Shown here: in pieces, positions 189-64,000 of the stretch
How the letters are laid out: every line of letters begins with the position of its first letter
Position numbering within the stretch: position 1 is the stretch's first letter
Source of the DNA: Amoebophrya sp. A120
Lineage: Eukaryota > Protista > Dinoflagellata
Direction of reading: 5' to 3'
Length of the DNA stretch: 64,000 nucleotides
Assembly (NCBI GenBank): GCA_905178155.1
Contig: CAJINV010000003.1
Coordinates: 692,517-756,516, forward strand
Notes under the pieces: generated by a model
Database searches by the model: none
The model's input: the letters and a program-made list of their open reading frames with translations, nothing else
Told to the model about the DNA's origin: nothing
Translations under genes and position numbers: made by a program

Positions 189-1616
189 TCAACTGTTCAA
201 GGCATTCTCAAGAAACCCCCACGCGGGCTGCGTTTTATTTTCCATCAGAGCCACATACTCCGCGGCGGCCTCTACGTGGTCAGGCCACTCCAAGACACCG
301 CCTGCCACGCGGGAGCACTCCTGCCACTCATCGCCAGCCTCCCCCTCGCCCTCGGCGCCTTCGGCGGGGGGCTGCGTGCGCCGATGCCGGCGGAGAAAGT
401 CCAGGTCGGTTTCGCGCAGAAGCAGCGCATGCGTTGCGTCCTTCCCGCGCCGGCCGAACCGGCAGAACTCCTGGTAGAGATCGAGCAACGCGCTAACCTG
501 GTAGTGGATTCCGCGGCGAAGGTCCATGTCGATTCCCGCCCCAAAAGCCTTCGTAGCGACCACGACCAGGCGGCTGCCATCGCCCGCAGCTTTTGCAATG
601 TCCCGGTAGAGAGCGCCTTTGGCTTGTGGCCGCAATCCTCCATGAAAAGCCTTCGCCCCGAGCCGCGCCGCCAATTTTTTGCACCAGCGCCGGGTTAGGA
701 CGAAGATGATGACCGGCCCAGCGCCATTGTTTGCGCCGAACTCCGGGCGTGCCAGCACGCTCTCGAGAAATTCAACCTCCGCGTCATCGGAAAAAACAGA
801 GCCGTCCGGTCTCTTCTCCACCGTCTGCGAAAGATGGGGGCTTGCGGCAAAATGCCGAGAAACCGGAAAGGGCGGCACACTCAACGACGCACCAAGGGAG
901 CGGACGAAGGCGGGCGGCAATGTCGCGGAAAGGAGTACGACCTTGCGCAACCGCTCGCCCAGAGCCAGCTGCGCCCCGACCTCCTTCAGGAGGTCTGCAT
1001 ACGGTCGAAATGCGGCCCACTGCACACAGAGATGCGCCTCATCAAATATGACACACTCGTAGCCATCTTCCCGGAGCGTGGAAACCGGCGCCCTTTCCGG
1101 CGAACAGAAATGGACGGCGTACTTGTCGTGCAGATGCTTCGAGGTTTTCGAAGGAGCCCCGATGCTCGTAGCGACATTTTGCCGGAGCAAACTGTTGACA
1201 GCGTCCAAGAGGTTCTGCTGAAGGGCGACAAGGGGCACCACGAACAAGGTTTTCCGTAATGCGACACGCGCCCGCCCCAACATCGCCCCCAGATGCGCCT
1301 GCGCCGCTGTGTCGCTCGGGATGTCAAAACAGGCCAGCAGGGCAGCATGCGTCTTGCCGCTCCCCGCGCTTGCTGCCCAGGCCACCACAGAGTGGCCCGC
1401 CTGCTCATCGAGAAAGGCCTGCTGCGCCGGCGAAAGGCTCCGGGCGCCTTGCGTTAGTTGCTGGTAGATGGAGCCACGCCGCAAGCCCCCGTCGTCGGAG
1501 ACCTGCGCCGTCGCCAACTCGCACAGACCTGGGGTCTTGCAGTGCTCCGCCCTGCGCCTCTTCGATGAAGGTGCGGCAGCGCTGCGACACGCGCCGCAAG
1601 AGAACTGCAGCGACAT
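189..1616 (-). CDS. RecQ-like SF2 DNA helicase (intronless, core only)
   Basis: Motifs in order: SAGSGKT (I), VVPLVAL (Ia), DEAH (II), LSATLPP (III), FHGGL, VVATKAFGAGID (V), QEFCRFGRRG (VI variant of QExGRAGRDG). Start uncertain. Confidence 0.75.
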   Translation of the reverse strand: MSLQFSCGACRSAAAPSSKRRRAEHCKTPGLCELATAQVSDDGGLRRGSIYQQLTQGARSLSPAQQAFLDEQAGHSVVAWAASAGSGKTHAALLACFDIPSDTAAQAHLGAMLGRARVALRKTLFVVPLVALQQNLLDAVNSLLRQNVATSIGAPSKTSKHLHDKYAVHFCSPERAPVSTLREDGYECVIFDEAHLCVQWAAFRPYADLLKEVGAQLALGERLRKVVLLSATLPPAFVRSLGASLSVPPFPVSRHFAASPHLSQTVEKRPDGSVFSDDAEVEFLESVLARPEFGANNGAGPVIIFVLTRRWCKKLAARLGAKAFHGGLRPQAKGALYRDIAKAAGDGSRLVVVATKAFGAGIDMDLRRGIHYQVSALLDLYQEFCRFGRRGKDATHALLLRETDLDFLRRHRRTQPPAEGAEGEGEAGDEWQECSRVAGGVLEWPDHVEAAAEYVALMENKTQPAWGFLENALNS

Positions 1617-2040
1617 TTTGGGCTAGGTGGCAGCGGTGAAGATCTTTGAAAGCAAAATGCCGCAACTTTCGCACCCCTAGAGAAGAAGAAGAAGAACAAA
1701 GAAGAATAAGAACAAGAAGAAACAGAGATGAAAAGGAACGAAAGAACGAACAAGAAACGAGTAGGCTTGCATCGGTATAAAGAAAAAAACAAGAAGAAAA
1801 AGTGGAAACTGGAACAGGAGCGGAGCCGAATCACGGCGGTGTGGTGCTTCCATGTGTCAAAACGAGCCAGCTAAGTCTGAAAAAAAGCCGAGTCCTTTCT
1901 ATTTTCATGAGTGCTCGCATTACAAATTCATTCTTTTCTTGTTTTGATTGTTTTGCTTTTCACATCACAAACATCAATGAACCCTGTTTCACCCAAACTC
2001 TCTTGCGCGTGTGTAACTTTGTGTTCGTGGCTCAAGACAC

Positions 2041-10557: not shown

Positions 10558-13500
10558 ATGCGGCAGACCACCTCGTCGAGGAAGCAGGCTCATCTGCCCG
10601 AGCACAGGCAGAGGAACCTAGCTGCTGCTCGCGACATTAACATAAATCACAAGCACTTCCCAAACAGCGGAATAGCGCACGTTCCAAAGGGGTACAAGAA
10701 ATTTAGTGGCCTCGATAACAGCGATAGCGACGGCGCAAGCAGCAGGGAGCAAAGCAGAAGTGAGAGCTCTAACAGGGCCGCGAAAAAACCGTCTGCAGCA
10801 GAACAATGGTTGGCGTTCCAGGACTCGCAAACGTCTGCAGAACGTCAGGCTCACATTGAGTCAGAGGCGAACAAATTCATCTCGCAGATGAACAAGTCGG
10901 CACTAAAGCAGCCCAAGGCAAAGACGAAGGAAGAAGAGCATGAGAAAACGGTGAAGAGAGTACTCAAAGAAGAGAAGCGCATGATATCCACCCGTGCAAC
11001 TGCAAAAGTATCGTACTGCTCGCAATAAACGAATCGCGCGTACAGTTTTTGCAACATCAACACAGCTCTGGTTCTCCTGCCCAATCCAGCAACGCGAATT
11101 CCATTTTTTTTTATTCCTTCTGATGAACTAAAAAATTGCATTTGCAAGGTATACGTAATTTCATCTACTACTAGAACTAGAAGTGCGATTACTTTTGCAA
11201 TGCATAATTGGACCGATTAGCAAATGATCGCATCTCGTCCTCGGACGACTCGTCGTGCGGGAGCGACAGCAACAAGGCTCTTCGACAGGGGAAAATCTTG
11301 AAGGAGAAACTGCAAAAATTTTCGGTATTTTCCAAGTATGCGCAGCAATCCAAGATAGTGCGCGATATGCGACAAAGTCCCCCCTGCGCGGCCTCGTCTT
11401 GCAGCAGTTCTAGCAAGAGCAGACGGAGGAGCCAGGGCTCCGCTGACTCCGGAAGCAGGAGGAGTTCTTGGAACAACAAGAGAAGCAAGCACGGCGGCGG
11501 TCCGGCCTCCAAGCGGTTATCTCACGATGGCGATGCAGTTTGGGACGCGTACGTCGCAGCGCAGAAGAAAGGGGTTGTCGTGGAGCCCGAAAAGGACATT
11601 GAAGACAACCTCGAGCGGGCGGAAGCGAAGGGGGCGCAGATCCTGTCTCGGCTGGACGCGATAATAGACCTGCCGCTCAACAACATCCCCTTCGAAACCT
11701 GGGAATCGCTACAAAACGCCGTCATTCTGAGCGACAAGAAAAGCCTGCTGCCGGAAGGGCTTTCCGCGCAGGTAAAGCTGCACCACCTACTGAAAATCGA
11801 GGATCTGCTGTTCCGCGTAAACAAGAATTACCGCGGGGTGCAGCAAAAGTATGACCGGGAAAAGGCCGAAGCGGAGAAAAAGCGGTACGAGAGGATGCTG
11901 CTGAGGCAGCAGCGCAAGGCCCGCGAGACCGCCGAGGCCCTCGAGGAAGAACAAATGAGCGACGGGAAAAAAAAGCAAAAGCGTCATAATGAGAACCAGG
12001 ACGACGAGGATGGAATCGATTCTTGCCGCAAAAAGTTGCAGTTCGTACCAGGAGGCCACAACTATCCGCGCGAACAGGCCGGGGGCAGTAGTTCGTCGTC
12101 CTCGTCCGCCTCGCGGGAACAAAATAACGCGCTTCGATCTTCCTCTGCGACTGAGGAAATGCAGGAGGTGGAAACCCCGTTCGGCGGTTTGAAGGTTGTT
12201 GGATTAAGAGTCGGGGATGATCTTGATTAGGGGAGAAAAATCTTGCCATCTCTACAAAAATTTTGTACCACCAGAACACGCGCAAAAACAAGGTTGTTTT
12301 TTGGGGTCCCAACCTATTTGGCGGCCCGCTTCCGGGCCCCACAGCCCCGGCAAATTTGGCTGGCGGCTGTCGCGTTTCACATAGTAGGAGCTTCGGCCGG
12401 AAGCCATTGGGAAGGAGCGACCGGCGCCGCCGTGCGCTCGTCCTCCCGTGTTTCCTAGGTGCCAAAGGCGGCCAGGAAGTTGGCCCGGCTCCAGGCCCGA
12501 TGCAGCCCGGCGGGCGCATCAGGTCCAGACCTGTTGTGGCCCAGCCGACCTGGAGGAAAGCGTCTGGCCCCGGAGCTCACACTTGCCAACAACGAGAGCC
12601 CCAGAACCCACCCCCAAAAACGACCCCCAAAAGCGACCCCCTTCCCCCCCCTAGAAACAGGCGATTTGAAGTACCCCCAAAAACGACCCCCCCAGCCACC
12701 CCCCTTCGGGGCCGGGCAGGGCGAAATCTGGAAGAGCTTTCTTGTTCTTTCCAGCACTCTCGCCTTGGCCACTCGTAGGCGCCATCGCCACTGGCGAGGG
12801 GCAGAGGCCCTTAAGCCTTGCCATGGGCTGCGCGCTCACCGCAGAGATTCCCTGCCCTTGCACGGCCAGCACATGTGGAGCAAGACTAAAAGACGCCCCG
12901 ACAATCGAAGCAGTCACAGACCACGGCCGCCCATGCGGGCCCAATCGATTCGGGCTGGCTGTGCGCGCTCGCTGACTGCCTAAAAAAATAAAAAGTTTAA
13001 AGCCCCAAAAAACAGCCTTTTTTTTTCGCGTGTTCTGGTGGTACAAAATTTTTGTAGAGATGGCAAGATTTTTCTCCCCTAACTTGACGATGAAGATGAG
13101 GAACCCGAAATTTCCCTCTCGATGGACGAGCCGGGCGCCGCGGTGTGGCGCAACTGTCTGCTGGAGAGATTGCCGCCAGCCGATGTAGACACCGATATGG
13201 ACCACGAACTGGCGGTAGGGCGGAACACATCAAACAAGAGTCTTACCGCTGGGAAGGGTCAAGAAGACGAGGACGTCGAAATGACCCCCGCGGAGGATCA
13301 GGACGTCGTCACGAAGGGGGACGGCTGCGCACCACCAGGAGCCGCTCCAGGCACAACAACTACACAGGAGGGACCTCCGGAGGACTCTGGGCAAAATAAA
13401 TCCGAACCTCCGCAGTGTATCACCCGCGTTCAGGCGCTCTTGTGTGTGCTTGCTAACTGCCTGACACGATCTGCAGACGAGTACCCCGGACAAGCCCGTC

Positions 13501-32200: not shown

Positions 32201-35200
32201 TGACACCACCATAAGAAAAATCCCCGAACGGGCGACCTGGACACGTACTACACGGACGAACACGAAATGATTGGGTACCACCAGTGCGTATGAACTGCAA
32301 AAGTATCGGACTCGTAGACGTAGTAATTGCTCTTATGCATGACAAATCTCTTTCCGAAGGCGAAGGTAAAACAGCACTACAAATTTCATTTGTAATGCTG
32401 AGCGAATTTGTAATGCAATTTATCCTAGACCTAGTACGATGCTTTTGCATTTCATAGTGCGAGGTGTGGGAGGACCAGAAATCCTTGCAGAAAAATGGTC
32501 GCCGGTTCCCGGACAAGAAGCGGTACCTGAAAGACGCGAAGTACCGCAAAAAAGTCCTGGCCCTGCTTATCAAAAGGAAAAATCCCCCCTCCCCACATCA
32601 AAACGAAATTTCTGATGCTGGATTTGACTACACAAATCAGGTTTGTATTGCAGGAAAGCATTGCAGTCATATCCCCAGGCTAGGGGAAGGGCGTATGCGT
32701 CTAGTTGTTCAGCATGGCAAGCGGCTCCCCTTTAGGCCCAACAGCATGACAAATCGCTTCCATAGTGGGGCGGAAGCTTCTGCCCTTGTCTTCTTGCAAT
32801 ACAAATGTGATTTGCGACCTCAAATCAGCAACAGGGGCTACGTGCGACCCCTCCGACGCTGCGTGTGGAAGGAGGAAGTTCGGCGTGTTGGGGGTGAGGG
32901 ACCCCCGACGTTGGCCTACGGATATCATGGGGAACTAAGGCTCAAATCAGCAACACCGAGTGGTCGTGCGGTTCGGTTCTCCTATGCCCATGCCTACCGT
33001 GTACTTGCCGCTGGGTACTGGTAGTGCGTCTCTTTCGTCAGACTGTTTCGCTTCGGCGAAACGACATGACGATTGTTTGGGGAGGTTCCTTACGGTCCCC
33101 TCAGGGCATTGCCTCGTCGCTGACCTGTGGAGTAAGGCGGTTCAGGTCAGCTTCGGGAAGGGTATCCGGAGTTGAGTTAGCTTCGGCTTTCTCTTGTGTA
33201 TTCGAGGGCAGTGGTTGGCGGAGGTTGTTGGGATGTTCCTAATCAGTCATCCCAGAACATTTGTGTTCCTTTCTGACTTCCTCATTTCCTGTGCAGTATT
33301 TTACTGCATATACAGGCGCCACCCTCGTTTATCACCTCCAGGGCTACGTGCGACCCCTCCGACGCTGCGTGTGGAAGGAGGAAGTTCGGCGTGTTGGGGG
33401 TGAGGGACCCCCGACGTTGGCCTACGGATATTATGGGGAACTAAGGCTCAAATCAGCAACACAAATTTTCGGAAACATACCTTTTCGATATGGGGAGGGG
33501 GGATTTTTGCTTTTGATACTGCTGCTCCGGGTCTGGCCGCGCATCCGGGACACGAAGCCCTGCCAGCTCGTGCACCCGGCCGCTGCCAACGAGGAGGACG
33601 GGTTGAGCCAGCTCCGCGAACAAATGCGGGAGTTTCTGCTCGCGCTCGTACCGAACGGCCTGTGGGACCGACCTTTGTTAAGAACCCTGCAGCTGCCCCC
33701 CCGCCGGGGAGAGGACTGGCACGCCCCTCCCGACCGGCCCGACCGCCCTTATCAAATGTAAAAATGTCTGGGTCTGGAAAAGTGGAGCTTGTAATGCGTG
33801 TCATGCATTCCTGGAAAATCTGCGTTGCATGAGCAGCAAAAGAGAGGCTTTCTTTGTCATGCAAAAACGCAATTTGTAATGCGTGCTAGGCATCATCAGG
33901 CATCTCAAAAACTTGTCGTGCTTGGCTGCCATTGGAAGCGCTTCAATCATGCGCAATTCAGCATCACAAGTTTCCAGACCCAGACATTTTTACATTTGAT
34001 AGCCCTTTCTGGAAGGACATTCCGGTTTACCTGGCGTATATCAAATGTAAAAATGTCTGGGTCTGGAAGATATCAAACTTGTCATGCTGTTTCTGGATTC
34101 TAAAAAAATTTGTATTGCATGACCAGCAAAAGGACTCCAGTTTGTGCTACGTGAAGAGGGTATTTCTCATGCGGTAGAGGCATCACAAAGTCCTCTGATA
34201 ATCTGTGATACTAGGCATGCATCACAGACATCATGGGTCATTCAAAATATGCATGACAAACCTGGCGATCTTCCAGACCCAGACATTTTTACATTTGATA
34301 GCGTACGACACGGCCCAATTCCGCAAGTGTGTGGTGATGATGATGGTGCCGGGGGTGGACGACGTGCTAGAGATCGGTTGCTCAGCGGGCGTGCTGACCG
34401 AAGCTCTGGCGCAAAAGCAGCCACACTCCCTGACGGCGGTCGACGTGTCCCCGGAAATGCTGGCGATGTGCAGACAGCGGCTGTTCCAGCAGTCGCCGAC
34501 CAGCAACTTCTCTCCGATCTTGCAGGATGAAGAGGCCGACGCCGATGAGAACAATGCGGGGTCTTCGTCCGTTCTTGCAGAAGATCATGAGGCAAACGGA
34601 AATAACCGAGATGATCAACCCTTTCGGCGGCCTACGGTGCAGAGGTTCGACGCGTTGCTCGGCGACTTCACCGAACTGCAGTGCCGGCCTTCCTTGGTGA
34701 GCATCGACATCGGCGGAGATCGGAACAGCGCGGCTGTACTGGAATGTGTGGACCGCGTGCTCAGGTTCTACCACCGGGACGTGGAAGCCATCATTGTGAA
34801 AAGTGAGGAGGTTTTTCGCATGCTCTTTCCGCAACATGAAACTTTGAAACCCAGAAAGAAACAGGTCGACGTTCTTGTGCCACAAAATCAAAATCTTGTT
34901 GTTCATGCGACGTCTAGTACTGCATCGCAGCAGGAGAACGACCTGGAGCAGACACAGAAGCTGGCAAAAATTCACCAAGATCGTCCGGCTGCAGCAGCAG
35001 CAGGTGGACAACAACAGCTTTCTGCCTCTACGTCGTCCTCATCTTCATCCTCTTCATCTTCATCTCAACTACCAACCCTAGCAACAAGCACAACAACTCC
35101 GCGACAGACTAGCGGCACACCAGCACCAGACGCGGGCCGTTTATTGGTGAACCACAACCACCTCCCTGCCCGCCCGCGGAACGGGAATACCAAAAATAAG

Positions 35201-57954: not shown

Positions 57955-58750
57955 GTTGACGCTTACAGCAGGAGCCGCAGCTTCTGGGAAAGATGAAAAT
58001 TCGTTCGATGAATCAGGTACAACTACTTTTACATAGCGGCTCACGAACACGACGTGCCAAAGTTTTGCACCGTCGTGGGCATGCAATGTAGTTCTGTAAA
58101 GTATGCTTTGTCGTTTTTCTTTTTTAACTTTGCCTTTGTCAGTTTAATTGCTCCTGCCTGGTCCTCCTTTTTGTTTTTCCTGTTTGGGTTTGATGCCTGA
58201 ATACCTTCAATTTCGCAGTTTGTTCTGTCATGCGTGGTGGTTTGCAGCATTTTTTCCGCACTCCCCGTGCTATACACACTGGCAGTGGTTTGATTTCAAT
58301 TTTGTGGTCATCGTGAGTTGCTTGCAGTACTGTTTTACTTCTAGTAATATCTTGGAAGATAAATAAGTGTATTGCCTTTCATCCTACTCGGTGAACTCTG
58401 GAGCATCCCGCTACTTTCTCTTCGAGAGTGCTCCTCGTGCGGATTCTACAGTATCATTTATCAACCCTACTTATTGCTATTTGTTTTTCATCTTTTTGTG
58501 TTTGTCTTTGCGAGTTAGTGTGTGTGTCCCCGTGGCTTCCTGTCCTCTGCAGAGCTTGCGTCTTTCGGGAGGACGAGAAGCACGAGCTGCAAGCTGTGCT
58601 GCTGGACTGATAATTGAAAATAATAACTTGATTAGTTGGCTCGTCCAACCGAAGTATTTGACTGTTTGGGTTTTGTTGAACTTGATTGGAAATCTGCTAC
58701 TTTATTTGACTACTGATATTTTGAGCGATTTGCTTCCCTCCAAGTGGATG

Positions 58751-61700
58751 GAAGGCATATGCAGAAGCCGCCGATAAGAAAGTAAAAGAACTATTTGTGA
58801 TGCCAGAAAAGATGTGTGATGCGAGCGTCGGCACAGGCATGGACTATTGGACAGAAGGTCTGCGAAAGCCTGAGGACTGGCAGCCAAATAGGCAGATGAG
58901 CACAGCAAAGGCAGATGAATGCCTAACAAAAATTAGGCATGCAATACATGGCGCGGCCCTAGAAACTCTGAAGTACATAGGCAAGAAAAAGGGCAAGAAA
59001 GCAGGCAAGAACGTAGAGAGTAGTGCAGGTACAAACAAACGACCCGCGGGGAACGCTCCCCCTACTGCGCCAGCGCCTGCGGTAAACGAGGATATGGCCG
59101 CCGAAGTGAAGGACCTGGATTGGCAGGGGGTTAAGGAGCGGAAGGGTGCGAGCCGGTGGTCGACGGGGTTTCCGAAAGTCATGGTGCGAGGGGACTTCGA
59201 GTCTCGCCGGAAATATCTTCTTCGCACGACAGGCAACGAGGCCAAGTCCTTGGACGAAGCGAACAAGATCCTGAAGGCCAAGAAGGTGAACGACGTGCCC
59301 ACAGAGGAGGAGGCAACGCGAGCCCCCTCCGAGATCTGTCGAATAATAAAAAACTTTTTCAGAAGTAAACCATTCAAGGTATATGAGGAGTTCGAAACAC
59401 GGCCCGCATCAAAGGACGAGGTAGAACGGGCCTGGACGACAGCAGAGCAGGACTACCTGAAGGAGAAGGCGGAGAAAGATGGTGGCAGCACCTGGCCGCT
59501 GAGCTTCTTGGAAGTAGAGGCGGCTATACGGAAACTGCAACCGGGGCGCACCCCCGGCCACTGTCTCACCACGCATGAGATGGTGCGAAATGCGGGGCCG
59601 CTTCTTCGCTGGGCTCTCTTTCAATGTTTTGAAGCATACGTCTATCATGCAACATATCCGGCTCAAGGACGTTTGATCTCGATGGCTGCAGTGCCAAAGG
59701 TGGCAGGAGGCTGCTACACGGAAATGCTAATGCGTCCCGTTTCACTGTGCAGTGTGTATAGCAAGATCCTAGACAATATTTATGACAGGCGCCAGAGCCT
59801 TTGGCTGGATGGCCACCGTTGGGAGGGCTCGGAGTACAAGGGTCTCGGCCCGAAGGTTCAGCCAGCTTTCAGCAACGCCTACCGGCAAGCACATGGGAAG
59901 GAATTCTCTACGGCGGTGATAGTGGATGGGATTTTTGGGGAGGTAAGTTGTAAGGTGGTTTTGAATGATTGTTGTTCGGGTTTTGATATCGTCTGCCACG
60001 TGGAGACGCTGGGAGCATTGAAGGCCAAAGTTTGCCCAGCGCAACAATGTGCGGCAATTGCTGGCTTCATGAAGTGGAGAAAAATAAAACTGCCGGGGGG
60101 GAAGGAGTATGCCCTGTGGGTCGGCAAACCGCAGGGCTCTCCGCTTTCCGGGTCTGTATGGAACGGATACACGATCGACTTGATCATGGAGGTGCTCGAA
60201 TTGCAAGCAATACGCGTGCTCAGTGCGTACTCGGACGACATCACGGTCGTCGCCAAGAACACGCCAGAAGGTGAGCAGGTGCCCAGCATGATGAAGAAGA
60301 TCGGCCTAACGAAGAAGATATTTTTTGACGAGCTCAAGCACAAGCAGATCGAGTATGACAGTAGCAAGCCGAACCAAAAATCCAGAACGGGAAAGGGGAA
60401 GAGCCTGGGCTGCATCTACGACGGAACATACACCTTCCGCTCGCATGCGGACGAAGTTCAAAAGAAGATTATGCATGAGTTCCACTTTTTGCAGTCAGAA
60501 CGAGGACAAAGCATTAAACAAAAGATAATGCTCATGAACGCGTTTGCATTCCCCGCGATCACGTCGATCTCAGTCGTGCCGTTTCCTTTCTTCACGACTT
60601 CAGCAAAGAAAGAAGTAGCAAAGACTTTTGCATCTCAGATAAAACAGCGTCTGAATATCCCGCGGAACTGCAGCAACTTCCTGATGTACAGCGCCACGGG
60701 CCTCGCGAGCCCAATCGATAACATACTAACGGACGCTCTTATGGTGTTTTACAAAGGCGCCGCTCTGGACTTGTGGCCCTTCTACCTAGACGAGGAGGAC
60801 ATTCCGCCCGCGCGACCTTCGCCAGAGATGTCACGGGACGCGGAAGCGTTTCCCCCCGTCCCCCCCGTGCCGGAATCCTCCCCAGCGGTCGCAGCAGCAG
60901 GCGAGGGGCAGCAGGTCGCTCCCCAGACACAGGAGGAGAGCGAGAACGAGCTAGACGAGCTACCAGACATTTTTGCAACGTGGGACTTGGAGGACCCGAT
61001 CTGCGCAACTACAACACACGAAAACCCGCTCTGGGGGCGGTGCAACGAAGCCTGGTCATGCAGAATGAATAGAATAGCACTGAGTGATGAATATCGCGAC
61101 TTAGCACAAGCAGCAAAAAGTTTACAGGTAGGGCGGCAATACTGGAGGGGTGTGAATAGGATTACGGTGCTGCCGATGCGTCAGGTTGCCGCAGATTTTG
61201 ATGTACCAGATCCAGGCAGGCTGGATGATCGTGAGGAGAAAGATAAGGCAAGACTTGAAATCTCGCAAAAGAACGAACAGGTAACGCGCTCCCTATTGCG
61301 CGAGAAGCAGACGGTGGTGTCGTACACGGACGGGGGAGCAAAGTTCGAACGAGGGAGCGGGGGTGGTGCCTCTTGGCACCGCACCGCACAGCAGGGGCGA
61401 CGCCCTGCGCCGATCGTGGTAAGTTGTTGTTGCATTGAGTCAGAAATAGGTGACCCAGAGGAGACGACAGACCCGGACTCGTTTGACGGGGAGTGCTACG
61501 GCCTGCTGAACCACGTCAAAACGTTACGGGCCCACTCCGATCCACAGTGGCTGAAGACAATAACCAAGCACGTTTTCTTCGTTGACAACAACGGGCTCCT
61601 GCAGGCGATGAAGGCTTTCCGGGACCGGAGTAATGTCATGATAATCAAGCTCGTGCGAGAGCTGGAAGAGCTTGAAAAAGTTTCTGCGCCAGGGTGCGAG

Positions 61701-63945
61701 TTCGTCTTCAGGTGGACGCCCTCACATCTGGCGAACTACTATAATGATTTTGCAGACGCGATGGCCACAAGAGGCCTAGACCACAACAAGGGAAAAGAAC
61801 TACAGAGGCCCTTCTACAAAAAGGACACGACAGTGAACCTGCTCCGCCGACTAGTACAGGAAAGAACGAAAAACAAGTTTCTAGGCAGCACAAAATGTCA
61901 CCCATACCTGAAGCGGCGAGCTTTTTGCATGCGGGAATACAAAACAGAAGAAAAGCGCCCGCAGTATATAGACGCTATTATGTTTGCATTATGGATGGGG
62001 ACAGCGAAAAAAGGATTCCTAGGAATGGGAAAGCTCGAACACAACACAAAAAGGCCGCACCTAACAGGCATGAAATGCCAATACTGTGATAAGAAAGTTT
62101 TGCCGACCACCGACCACCTTTTGTATGAATGCCAGCAAGCAGATTTTGTAGAAGCAAGAGAGAAGTGCTTCGGCCTGCCAAAAATAACGAGTATGAAACA
62201 GCGATGCGAAATTCTAAAAAGCACGCAAATGACACGCAAAGTACTGACCTATCTTGAAATGACATCTGAAAACCAACCGGGAATACTACCAGAATCGCTA
62301 CGCAAAGCGATCCGGGAGAACGTGCAACGGGACACATCGGAGCAGCCGAAAGAAGAAAAAGAGCAGTTGAAATTGGACTCGGTCGCGCCGAATCACAAGG
62401 CGCTAGTGAGGCTAGTGCCGTGGGTGGACATGGTCTAGGAAGAGGAGGCGAATCAAGGCGGGTGCGCCTGCTACGAGTGCAACCCGAAGATGTGCACCTG
62501 TTTGCCGGTCTGGCGAAAAAGGCGACACAGAGCTACGAGATTCGGAGCGATTTGCAGCAGACGAAGAAACCCCCCGGTGTTGGGGCAGTCGGGGGAGGTA
62601 ATTCCCTACCGAAGTTCGGAAAGGTGCGAAGGTTTCCCGGACCGAAGTAAAGAGTACGGAATAGCATAGTTACTTGATCGCGCTAGATTTTTTATGTTCG
62701 TGTAGTCTTCCAGTAGTACTCTTCTTAGTAGGCTTCTTTCAGTTAAGACCAGTCAGTCAGGACACGCGCAAACATCTTTCACACCATAGCAGTTCACGTT
62801 CAAAACGAAGAAACAAAAATATAAAAAACAAAAATGAAACAGTTACACCTCAGTAAAAAGCTCCAACGTAGCAGCGAGCAGGAAGGAGAAAGTGCGTCAC
62901 ACGAGCGGGGTGCGTAGGGTGTTGGTGCGGGAGGAGCGGAACTACGCATTTCCAATCACACTGGTGACGCACGGCATCCGGGATGGCCGCAGCAGGAGTA
63001 CGAACACACAGAGAGGTTTTCCGTCTGAGTTTCCACACCGAAAAGTACGAAGACGCCAAATACGGGCACCATCGTCACAGAAGAAAAGGACAAAAATCGC
63101 AAAGAAGAGTACAGCTGATGCCCACTCAAAATTTCTAGGTCCCGTCGCGTAAAAATAGAGCGCAAGAAAAAAATAAAGAAAGAAGTACTACACGGAAGCG
63201 CAGCACCCAAAACACAAAGCAGGTCGTGGCAGACGCAGCCCGCGTAAGACTTCTACTAGAGGAGCGGCGCCTGCGTCTGTCCGGAGGAGGTGCCACTTCT
63301 GTTCTTTCGTAGTTTCGTTATGAGTGCTTCGTGTCCTGAGAGGAAATCCGGATATCAAAACTCAAAAACACACTCTTGCTGGTTGCAAAACCAAGTGCAA
63401 CCTACGCCGATGGCCCCGGCCGGGCGCAGGTAGAACTTCTTGTACTCGTTCACCACAACAGCGGGGGGATCGACGAACCCTCGCTGCGGGCTTCAGCCTA
63501 CAGGTAACTCTGTTGCGGTTGCCCCTCATTACTACGTCCTCGCGCAGTGGCTCACATCCTCTCGTCGAACAGGTGTGGCGTCTGGGCACTCCGGGTACGG
63601 GCCTTAGGTCACCAACCGGTTGTCGCTCCAGCGCCACAAACCCGAAACTCTCCAGTATACGTGTCCAGATACAAACAGGTCCAGAGAGCCACTGAGCATG
63701 CAGCAGCTGGGTTGGGTGGGGCGATCGCAGTACAGACTCGGTGTCGGGCCTCGAGCGGAAAAAGGAAGACAATGGGTGGCACTGAAGTCCTAGGTTTTGC
63801 ACACCCGGAAGGACTATTTGCCCACCTTTACCGATCTATTTCCAGCTCGGCTTGTCGATACCAGAACTATGTCCTATAGTTAAGCTTAAGAAAGTAAAAG
63901 ACTAGTAGATAGAAGCTTACTATAGAGGTTTCCTCCTCCTCCTCC
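58751..63945 (+). mobile_element. 5'-truncated non-LTR retrotransposon (~5.2 kb) with (TCC)n tail
   Basis: 16-bp TSD TCCCTCCAAGTGGATG at 58735-58750 and 63946-63961; the ORF is open back to the 5' junction; ~1.5-kb 3' UTR ends in TCC repeats. Confidence 0.88.
58797..62438 (+). CDS. Non-LTR ORF2 remnant: reverse transcriptase + RNase H + C-terminal CCHC; no endonuclease present
   Basis: RT motifs GRTPG, AVPK, RPVSL, DCCSGFDIV, GKPQGSPLS, YSDD, SLG; RNase H motifs YTDGG, DGECYG, FVDN, WTPSH, NDFADAMA; CQYC..HLLYEC. Confidence 0.92.
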   Translation: MMPEKMCDASVGTGMDYWTEGLRKPEDWQPNRQMSTAKADECLTKIRHAIHGAALETLKYIGKKKGKKAGKNVESSAGTNKRPAGNAPPTAPAPAVNEDMAAEVKDLDWQGVKERKGASRWSTGFPKVMVRGDFESRRKYLLRTTGNEAKSLDEANKILKAKKVNDVPTEEEATRAPSEICRIIKNFFRSKPFKVYEEFETRPASKDEVERAWTTAEQDYLKEKAEKDGGSTWPLSFLEVEAAIRKLQPGRTPGHCLTTHEMVRNAGPLLRWALFQCFEAYVYHATYPAQGRLISMAAVPKVAGGCYTEMLMRPVSLCSVYSKILDNIYDRRQSLWLDGHRWEGSEYKGLGPKVQPAFSNAYRQAHGKEFSTAVIVDGIFGEVSCKVVLNDCCSGFDIVCHVETLGALKAKVCPAQQCAAIAGFMKWRKIKLPGGKEYALWVGKPQGSPLSGSVWNGYTIDLIMEVLELQAIRVLSAYSDDITVVAKNTPEGEQVPSMMKKIGLTKKIFFDELKHKQIEYDSSKPNQKSRTGKGKSLGCIYDGTYTFRSHADEVQKKIMHEFHFLQSERGQSIKQKIMLMNAFAFPAITSISVVPFPFFTTSAKKEVAKTFASQIKQRLNIPRNCSNFLMYSATGLASPIDNILTDALMVFYKGAALDLWPFYLDEEDIPPARPSPEMSRDAEAFPPVPPVPESSPAVAAAGEGQQVAPQTQEESENELDELPDIFATWDLEDPICATTTHENPLWGRCNEAWSCRMNRIALSDEYRDLAQAAKSLQVGRQYWRGVNRITVLPMRQVAADFDVPDPGRLDDREEKDKARLEISQKNEQVTRSLLREKQTVVSYTDGGAKFERGSGGGASWHRTAQQGRRPAPIVVSCCCIESEIGDPEETTDPDSFDGECYGLLNHVKTLRAHSDPQWLKTITKHVFFVDNNGLLQAMKAFRDRSNVMIIKLVRELEELEKVSAPGCEFVFRWTPSHLANYYNDFADAMATRGLDHNKGKELQRPFYKKDTTVNLLRRLVQERTKNKFLGSTKCHPYLKRRAFCMREYKTEEKRPQYIDAIMFALWMGTAKKGFLGMGKLEHNTKRPHLTGMKCQYCDKKVLPTTDHLLYECQQADFVEAREKCFGLPKITSMKQRCEILKSTQMTRKVLTYLEMTSENQPGILPESLRKAIRENVQRDTSEQPKEEKEQLKLDSVAPNHKALVRLVPWVDMV

Positions 63946-64000
63946 TCCCTCCAAGTGGATGAAAGAAGACCAGTGCTGCTGGGTTACAGTGCAGGAAATC

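What the first reader, a model, noticed from the sequence alone, without database searches (positions are those of the whole stretch)
32819..33461. A structured-RNA retro-like element inserted twice at the same site inside an introner
Seen: layout T-R-T-X-R-T, where T = CTCAAATCAGCAACA (32819, 32941, 33447), R = 106 bp (32835-32940 and 33341-33446, one mismatch) and X is ~385 bp. The two units are 3'-coterminal and differ in 5' extent. X is rich in hairpins: GTTTCGC-TTCG-GCGAAAC closed by TCGTCA/TGACGA (33035-33072), GCTGACCTG/CAGGTCAGC (33119-33151), AGC-TTCG-GCT and GCAGTA-TTT-TACTGC. Removing 32834-33461 leaves a 323-bp introner, close to the size of the other families. Known: ~15-bp TSDs, 5' truncation and partial tandems typify target-primed retrotransposition (LINE/SINE, Penelope-like). 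Inference: a non-coding, possibly site-specific hyperparasite using introners as safe harbours.
Basis: partly seen in the sequence, partly recalled or inferred. Interest (0 to 1): 0.8.

Follow-up and report, generated by a model that had tools for sequence, protein, structure and literature searches.

The report
Retroelement inserted twice inside an introner
Two front-shortened pieces of a small repeat family sit head to tail between three copies of a 15-base stretch of a transposon-derived intron, likely because an RNA-copying retroelement aims at that one site, which would let it hide in introns that the host removes from its messages.

Summary
The layout T-R-T-X-R-T is real. T is host sequence: it mirrors the left arm of a 323-bp TAT...ATA introner, and empty copies with one T occur in two public runs. 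Removing the introner and two neighbours restores an open methyltransferase frame. X-R belongs to a low-copy family (about 9 copies by contig depth, inferred). Its majority form extends at least 136 nt further 5', so both window units are 5'-truncated. Most family 3' ends appear to run into T and host sequence. Best reading (0.72): a target-specific non-LTR retroelement inserted twice by target-primed reverse transcription, with duplications of 15 and 16 bp. 'Non-coding' is not shown: the 5' part was not seen, and a LINE in this window has a 1.5-kb 3' UTR. X folds better than chance (z about -3), but no ribozyme, Rfam family or compensatory pair was found. The closest precedent is crocodilian SINEU-3/Tx1-Mar in Mariner-N4, which also forms tandems around a TSD. 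The new point is that the target is an introner. This scan already reported introner-nested LINEs on other DNA of this genome (unreviewed notes); no sequence link to them was found.

The parts
32563..32567 (+). left 5-bp target duplication of the host introner (CTGCT)
32568..33518 (+). host TIR introner with its passengers (951 bp; 323 bp when empty); TIR arms 32568-32603 and 33483-33518
   Evidence: empty-site joint
32819..32833 (+). T copy 1, host target sequence; pairs with the introner's left arm
32834..32834 (+). extra G at the 5' junction of the short unit, next to a 2-nt CA microhomology
32835..32940 (+). short unit R1: the last 106 nt of the element, 5'-truncated
32941..32956 (+). T copy 2 plus host C (16-bp duplication)
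32957..33340 (+). X: hairpin-rich body of the long unit, truncated 5' at 32957 relative to the family majority
33341..33446 (+). R2: 3' end of the long unit; no poly(A) or simple-repeat tail
33447..33462 (+). T copy 3 plus C, continuing into the introner's right arm; its end overlaps a GCAACACA box 63 nt from the introner end
33519..33523 (+). right 5-bp target duplication of the host introner
32458..34700 (+). part of the host gene (SAM-methyltransferase domain downstream); the frame is open once three introners plus one 5-bp repeat each are removed

Best explanation
Two 5'-truncated copies of a low-copy repeat family lie between three copies of a 15-bp introner sequence, likely placed by two rounds of target-primed reverse transcription by a non-LTR retroelement that likely targets this one site. 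Shown: the layout; T is host DNA; empty sites exist; the family is longer at its 5' end and shares its 3' end. Inferred: an endonuclease nicks the bottom strand just before T and the top strand 15-16 nt further on, inside the introner's GCA(T/A)CACA box. The element RNA (plus strand, at least 626 nt) is copied from its 3' end, and copying stopped after 490 nt once and after 106 nt once. Each insertion regenerates T, so the site can be hit again. The order of the two events cannot be told. Whether the full element is a SINE-like non-autonomous RNA or the 3' UTR of a LINE is open (about even). The reverse transcriptase is not identified. Because the host is an intron-forming element, the passenger would be removed from the mRNA; this is untested.
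For: T aligns with the reverse complement of the introner's left arm and pairs with it in the empty-host fold. The empty-site joint 32818->33447 (skip 628, 15 shared letters) is in 5 contigs of X1 and 2 of X3. One X1 contig of 574 nt, depth 423 against 43-53 for apparently single-copy contigs, matches 32957-33394 with 3 differences and carries 136 nt of non-T sequence upstream. Another X1 contig leaves the element 5' of 33331. Two diverged 3' ends (7 differences in 59 nt; 5 in 45 nt) run through T. No loose end at 33440-33447 is among the 9 of 11 rows shown. A LINE in the same window has a 16-bp duplication. Precedent: SINEU-3 tandems sandwiching a 16-bp TSD in Mariner-N4 (PMC4494074, section 14); TSD-separated double insertions with distinct 5' truncations (10.1101/158386, passages).
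Against: No RT or endonuclease is linked to the family. There is no 3' tail. Copy numbers and targeting rest on summed contig depth, which the tool warns is not a copy number, and a contig leaving R exactly at 33446 might be too short to be laid. One X1 contig leaves at 33417 and one X9 contig at about 33423, without T. The roughly 9 near-identical long copies could be one insertion multiplied by the introner. The flanks of the other copies and the two junctions unique to this locus were not seen in any contig.
Confidence: 0.72

Rival explanations
1. No real targeting: one or a few insertions fell into an abundant introner and were multiplied when the loaded introner transposed; the extra R-T here arose locally by unequal exchange between T copies plus a deletion.
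For: The host family is very abundant (summed depth about 1e5-4e5), so a chance hit is cheap. The long copies collapse into one contig. R1 and R2 differ at only 1 of 106 bases, and there is a 2-nt microhomology at the R1 junction.
Against: Several distinct 5' ends are seen (32957, 33341, about 33331, and the longer majority). Diverged 3' ends, up to 12% different, also run into T. A chance hit would not reuse the same base position.
Confidence: 0.12
2. A non-autonomous Penelope-like element that made a partial tandem (pseudo-LTR) in one event.
For: A truncated copy precedes a longer copy, as described for PLEs, and some PLE clades lack hammerheads (PMC8557442, passages).
Against: The junction holds an exact host target copy. 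The downstream unit is itself truncated. No hammerhead core was found on either strand. No inverted copy is present.
Confidence: 0.07
3. R+T is an LTR of a TRIM or retrozyme-like element, or T-X-R is the monomer of a circular RNA.
For: There is a 122-bp direct repeat. The 506-nt unit folds with its ends close together.
Against: T is host DNA with empty sites. The family majority has other sequence, not R+T, upstream of X, and one search lists no joints at all, so no 'goes back' joint. R does not start with TG. No ribozyme was found in the linear or circularised unit.
Confidence: 0.03
4. The tandem is an assembly artefact.
For: Neither junction unique to this locus was seen in the contigs laid.
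Against: The junctions rest on a repeat of only 15-16 nt, far shorter than a read. R1 and R2 differ, and the extra G is unique. X1 holds both exon-introner junctions with 0 differences. The tool notes that these contigs drop rare variants.
Confidence: 0.03

Closest known systems
SINEU-3 and Tx1-Mar of crocodilians, targeting Mariner-N4_AMi (PMC4494074; passages and section 14 read)
   Same: A short retroelement in a fixed target of an abundant DNA transposon family; TSD of about 16 bp; tandem copies sandwiching a TSD; 5'-truncated copies at the same target.
   Different: Here the target is an intron-forming TIR element inside a coding exon of what is likely a parasitic dinoflagellate. No snRNA, tRNA or Rfam-derived part was found in the 490 nt seen. 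The partner LINE is unknown.
Tx1L in Tx1D of Xenopus laevis (one passage of PMC4494074)
   Same: A non-LTR element specific for a non-autonomous DNA transposon.
   Different: Tx1L is an autonomous Tx1-clade LINE; no ORF is seen here and the clade could not be tested.
Double insertions of R1 and other non-LTR elements in Drosophila (10.1101/158386; passages read)
   Same: A tail-to-internal tandem with the target duplication in the junction and distinct 5' truncations.
   Different: The R1 target is rDNA; here it is an introner.
Amoebophrya introner elements (PMC7789003, passages and section 11; PMC12130899, passages and searched supplement rows)
   Same: The host element fits the published pattern TAT + 7 nt + AAA with short direct repeats.
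   Different: The passages read describe no passenger targeting introners. Three A120 families classed TIR or Unknown carry LINE peptide hits, which may be unrecognised nested LINEs (my inference).

Membership tests
non-LTR (TPRT) insertion | target-site duplication of variable length | tested here: met
   15 and 16 bp; T is host DNA and empty sites exist
non-LTR (TPRT) insertion | variable 5' truncation with a shared 3' end | tested here: met
   5' ends at 32957, 33341, about 33331, and at least 136 nt further upstream in the majority
non-LTR (TPRT) insertion | poly(A) or simple-repeat 3' tail (common, not universal; recalled) | tested here: not met
   R runs straight into T
LINE (autonomous) | RT and endonuclease ORF upstream of the 3' UTR | not testable with these tools
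   no genome held; only 30 letters of the 5' extension were visible; the longest frame lying mostly in X is 114 aa and has no Pfam match
SINE | small-RNA-derived head with pol III boxes | tested here: inconclusive
   no tRNA, no A or B box by recalled patterns, no Rfam match in the part held; the true 5' head is missing
SINE | 3' tail shared with a partner LINE | tested here: inconclusive
   no match to the one LINE in the window (best local match 16 nt); other LINEs of the genome were not available
transposon-targeting retroelements (Tx1L, Tx1-Mar/SINEU) | most independent copies flanked by the same transposon at one position | tested here: inconclusive
   depth and diverged contigs continue from R into T and host, but copies could not be counted one by one, and two contigs leave before the end of R
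transposon-targeting retroelements (Tx1L, Tx1-Mar/SINEU) | Tx1-clade RT with APE endonuclease | not testable with these tools
   no protein is linked to the family
Penelope-like elements | partial tandem forming a pseudo-LTR ahead of a full-length copy | tested here: not met
   the downstream unit is truncated and is separated from the first by host T
Penelope-like elements / retrozymes | hammerhead ribozyme in the repeat | tested here: not met
   0 hits in 4 descriptor scans; Rfam gave 3 chance matches at E 4.4-8.1, none a ribozyme
Amoebophrya-type introner (host element) | TIR starting TAT-N7-AAA, short direct repeat, frame restored on removal | tested here: met
Amoebophrya-type introner (host element) | removed from the mRNA | tested here: inconclusive
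   X21 and X22 laid 0 reads; X3 contigs do not cover the exon flanks

The most novel reading that the evidence does not exclude
A promoter-less, structured, SINE-like RNA parasite that lives only inside introners. It is co-transcribed with host genes, released in the excised intron, and retro-homed by a borrowed LINE enzyme to the shared GCA(T/A)CACA box of the same introner family, with read-through T helping to prime. This would be a three-level parasite (RNA in introner in exon) that spreads without breaking genes.
Probability: 0.25. Interest if true: 0.78.

Novelty: new variant of a known kind. Interest (0 to 1): 0.52.

Why it matters
Retroelements that target other transposons are known. 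Targeting an element that is itself spliced out would give access to coding exons at little cost. A 323-bp introner that carries 628 bp of passenger inside an otherwise open gene is also a natural test of how the unexplained Amoebophrya non-canonical introns are recognised: by their ends and hairpin, or by length and internal sequence. The site gives a defined 15-16-bp target for finding the responsible endonuclease.

Tried and rejected
No own genome was held, so no genome BLAST. Rfam at E<=10 gave 3 chance matches. No tRNA. The hammerhead descriptor gave 0 hits in 4 scans, linear and circularised, both strands. Collection scans: metagenome contigs 0 and 1 locus, viral contigs 1 and 0, genome contigs 0. 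The two loci L001 and L002 match only the pattern and were dropped as chance. A 17-nt piece of the 5' extension has no significant match in the window (1 match with 3 mismatches; 11 of 100 shuffles did as well). The window's LINE is not the visible partner. RNA runs X21 and X22 laid 0 reads, which is no test. X11 (metatranscriptome) holds one 232-nt contig of X-R, but no silent control stretch was laid, so it is not counted as expression. X3 is only guessed to be RNA. Of 23 listed runs, 7 were laid. Covariation could not be done properly: 24 variant positions from truncated tables gave 0 compensatory, 2 pair-keeping, 9 pair-breaking and 13 unpaired changes; insertions and the R indels were left out. 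Scan look-ups by sequence and near returned nothing. Five short motifs were not found in 13 of 14 supplements of PMC12130899 (cells over 400 characters are cut and figures are not held).

Full report
Observation. The layout is as described. T occurs exactly three times in the window (32819, 32941, 33447). The two R copies differ at 1 of 106 bases and have no other match in the window. The right-hand repeat extends to 122 nt, R+T+C. The whole lies in a TIR element, 32568-33518, with 36-nt arms and a 5-bp duplication. Removing 32834-33461 leaves 323 bp; the other 15 of 16 elements in my strict catalogue are 152-308 bp.

The host is an introner. Removing it and the two neighbouring TIR elements, each with one 5-bp repeat, gives an uninterrupted frame running into a methyltransferase domain. 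Its ends fit the TAT + 7 nt + AAA pattern published for Amoebophrya A120 introners (PMC7789003, section 11), so the genome is likely an Amoebophrya (inference; earlier scan notes say the same). Splicing of this copy was not shown: X21 and X22 laid 0 reads, and X3 contigs miss the exon flanks.

T belongs to the host. It aligns with the reverse complement of the introner's left arm and pairs with it in the fold of the empty element. Contigs that skip exactly 628 bases with 15 shared letters occur in X1 (5 contigs) and X3 (2 contigs). X-R is therefore not part of normal copies, and T is a target duplication, not part of an LTR. The duplication ends inside a GCAACACA box 63 nt from the introner's end. 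All 16 catalogued elements carry such a box, but I took that pattern from note e1-10626161 and widened it to fit this site, so this is a lead only.

X-R is a low-copy family, truncated here. In X1 a 574-nt contig of depth 423 matches 32957-33394 with 3 differences and has 136 nt of other sequence upstream. Apparently single-copy contigs have depths of 43-53, so about 9 copies are inferred (the tool warns that depth is not a copy number). Two X3 contigs also extend 51 nt beyond 32957. The window's long unit is thus 5'-truncated at 32957, the C at 32956 is host (16-bp duplication), and the full element is at least 626 nt. The short unit starts at the equivalent of 33341, with an extra G and a 2-nt microhomology. 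A further X1 contig leaves the element upstream of 33331 (its flank was not displayed). Contigs with 95-99% or better identity occur in X9, X10 and X11, from three other studies, so the family is present outside the source organism's runs.

Targeting. With only T-X-R-T plus 5 host bases as reference, 19 X1 contigs were laid and host-only contigs were not. Summed depth is 2343 over 33427-33444, 1494 over 33445-33462 and 455 over 33463-33466, i.e. roughly 9 copy-equivalents running from R through T into host sequence (inferred). Two diverged 3' ends (7 differences in 59 nt; 5 in 45 nt) also continue through T. The breaks at 33445 and 33447 fit merging behind the indels at 33415 and 33417 (my reading, assuming 31-letter words). 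None of the 9 of 11 loose-end rows shown lies at R's end. Against: one X1 contig leaves at 33417 and one X9 contig at about 33423; a contig leaving exactly at 33446 might be too short to be laid; and hitchhiking of one insertion could explain the near-identical majority. One search lists no joints, so there is no sign of a circular or R-X form.

Structure. The 506-nt unit folds better than its shuffles on both strands (z -3.67; 0 and 1 of 100 shuffles as stable). X alone gives z -2.94 and R -0.69; 8 control stretches of 385 nt gave +0.69 to -1.56. The 23 variant positions in X have a mean pair probability of 0.43 against 0.67 background (P 0.002 by site; P 0.076 when grouped into 16 events). 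Of 24 positions tested, 0 were compensatory, 2 kept the pair, 9 broke it and 13 were unpaired. The variant tables were truncated and insertions were left out. Selection on hairpins is suggested, not shown. No Rfam family, tRNA, pol III box or hammerhead was found.

Coding or not. The longest frame lying mostly in X is 114 aa without a Pfam match, but this does not make the element non-coding. A LINE-like element at 58751-63945 (RT, weak RNase H, 16-bp duplication) has about 1.5 kb after its stop codon. It shares no sequence with X-R, and its UTR is less structured. It shows that LINE machinery of this genome makes duplications of the same length. SINE-like and LINE-UTR readings are about even.

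Mechanism. Most likely (0.72): an endonuclease nicks before T and 15-16 nt further on; the plus-strand RNA is copied from its 3' end and truncated; each event regenerates T, and the site was hit twice. The order is undecidable. The layout, host origin of T, empty sites and truncation are shown. Enzyme, RNA intermediate, targeting frequency and splicing are inferred.

Comparison. SINEU-3 sits in Mariner-N4_AMi in 313 of 347 near-full-length cases, with a 16-bp TSD and tandems sandwiching a TSD (PMC4494074, passages and section 14). Tx1L targets Tx1D (one passage). TSD-separated double insertions are common in Drosophila (10.1101/158386, passages). Penelope partial tandems (PMC8557442, passages) fit worse. 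The finding works like these transposon-targeting retroelements; membership of SINE, LINE or Tx1 could not be tested. A search for introner + nested + retrotransposon + inserted into + dinoflagellate found 0 papers, and SINE + MITE + target preference + safe haven listed 1 (listing only). The library is incomplete, and the supplement of PMC7789003 was not read. In a supplement of PMC12130899 (file 8, first 10 places per term), three A120 families classed TIR or Unknown carry LINE peptide hits. PMC4640811 was seen as passages. Unreviewed scan notes already describe LINEs nested in introners elsewhere in this genome; I could not check them, and sequence look-ups found no link.

Verdict. Real; a new variant of a known kind; interest 0.52.

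Noticed in passing
window 58735-63961: A LINE-like element, probably 5'-truncated (58751-63945): 1237-aa open frame with RT (E 2.9e-9), weak RNase H (E 0.007) and a C-terminal Cys/His motif, about 1.5 kb of 3' UTR, a (TCC)n tail and a 16-bp duplication (58735, 63946). It is not in an introner and shares no sequence with X-R.
   Followed up: partly
run X1, record 2 (also X9, record 13), matching window 33173-33242: A diverged relative of X: a 1380-nt contig at single-copy depth, 70 nt alike (8 differences, 2 gaps), extending about 800 nt upstream and 500 nt downstream. It suggests a second subfamily. A link to the 1.4-kb repeat of note e1-10589590 is possible but untested.
   Followed up: no
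loose ends at window 33416-33417: One X1 contig and one X9 contig leave R about 25-30 nt before its end into unrelated sequence: disrupted copies or a different 3' end.
   Followed up: no
window 33396-33417: R has at least three indel variants in X1 (2-nt deletion at 33396, C behind 33417, G behind 33415), at or near the 33393-33415 hairpin.
   Followed up: no
window 12227-13082: An 856-bp element with 93-nt inverted repeats between two long open frames; larger than the usual introners.
   Followed up: no
window 189-1622 (-): An intron-free helicase frame (DEAD E 2.7e-14, Helicase_C) next to a repeat-rich stretch and a gap of about 1 kb of N.
   Followed up: partly
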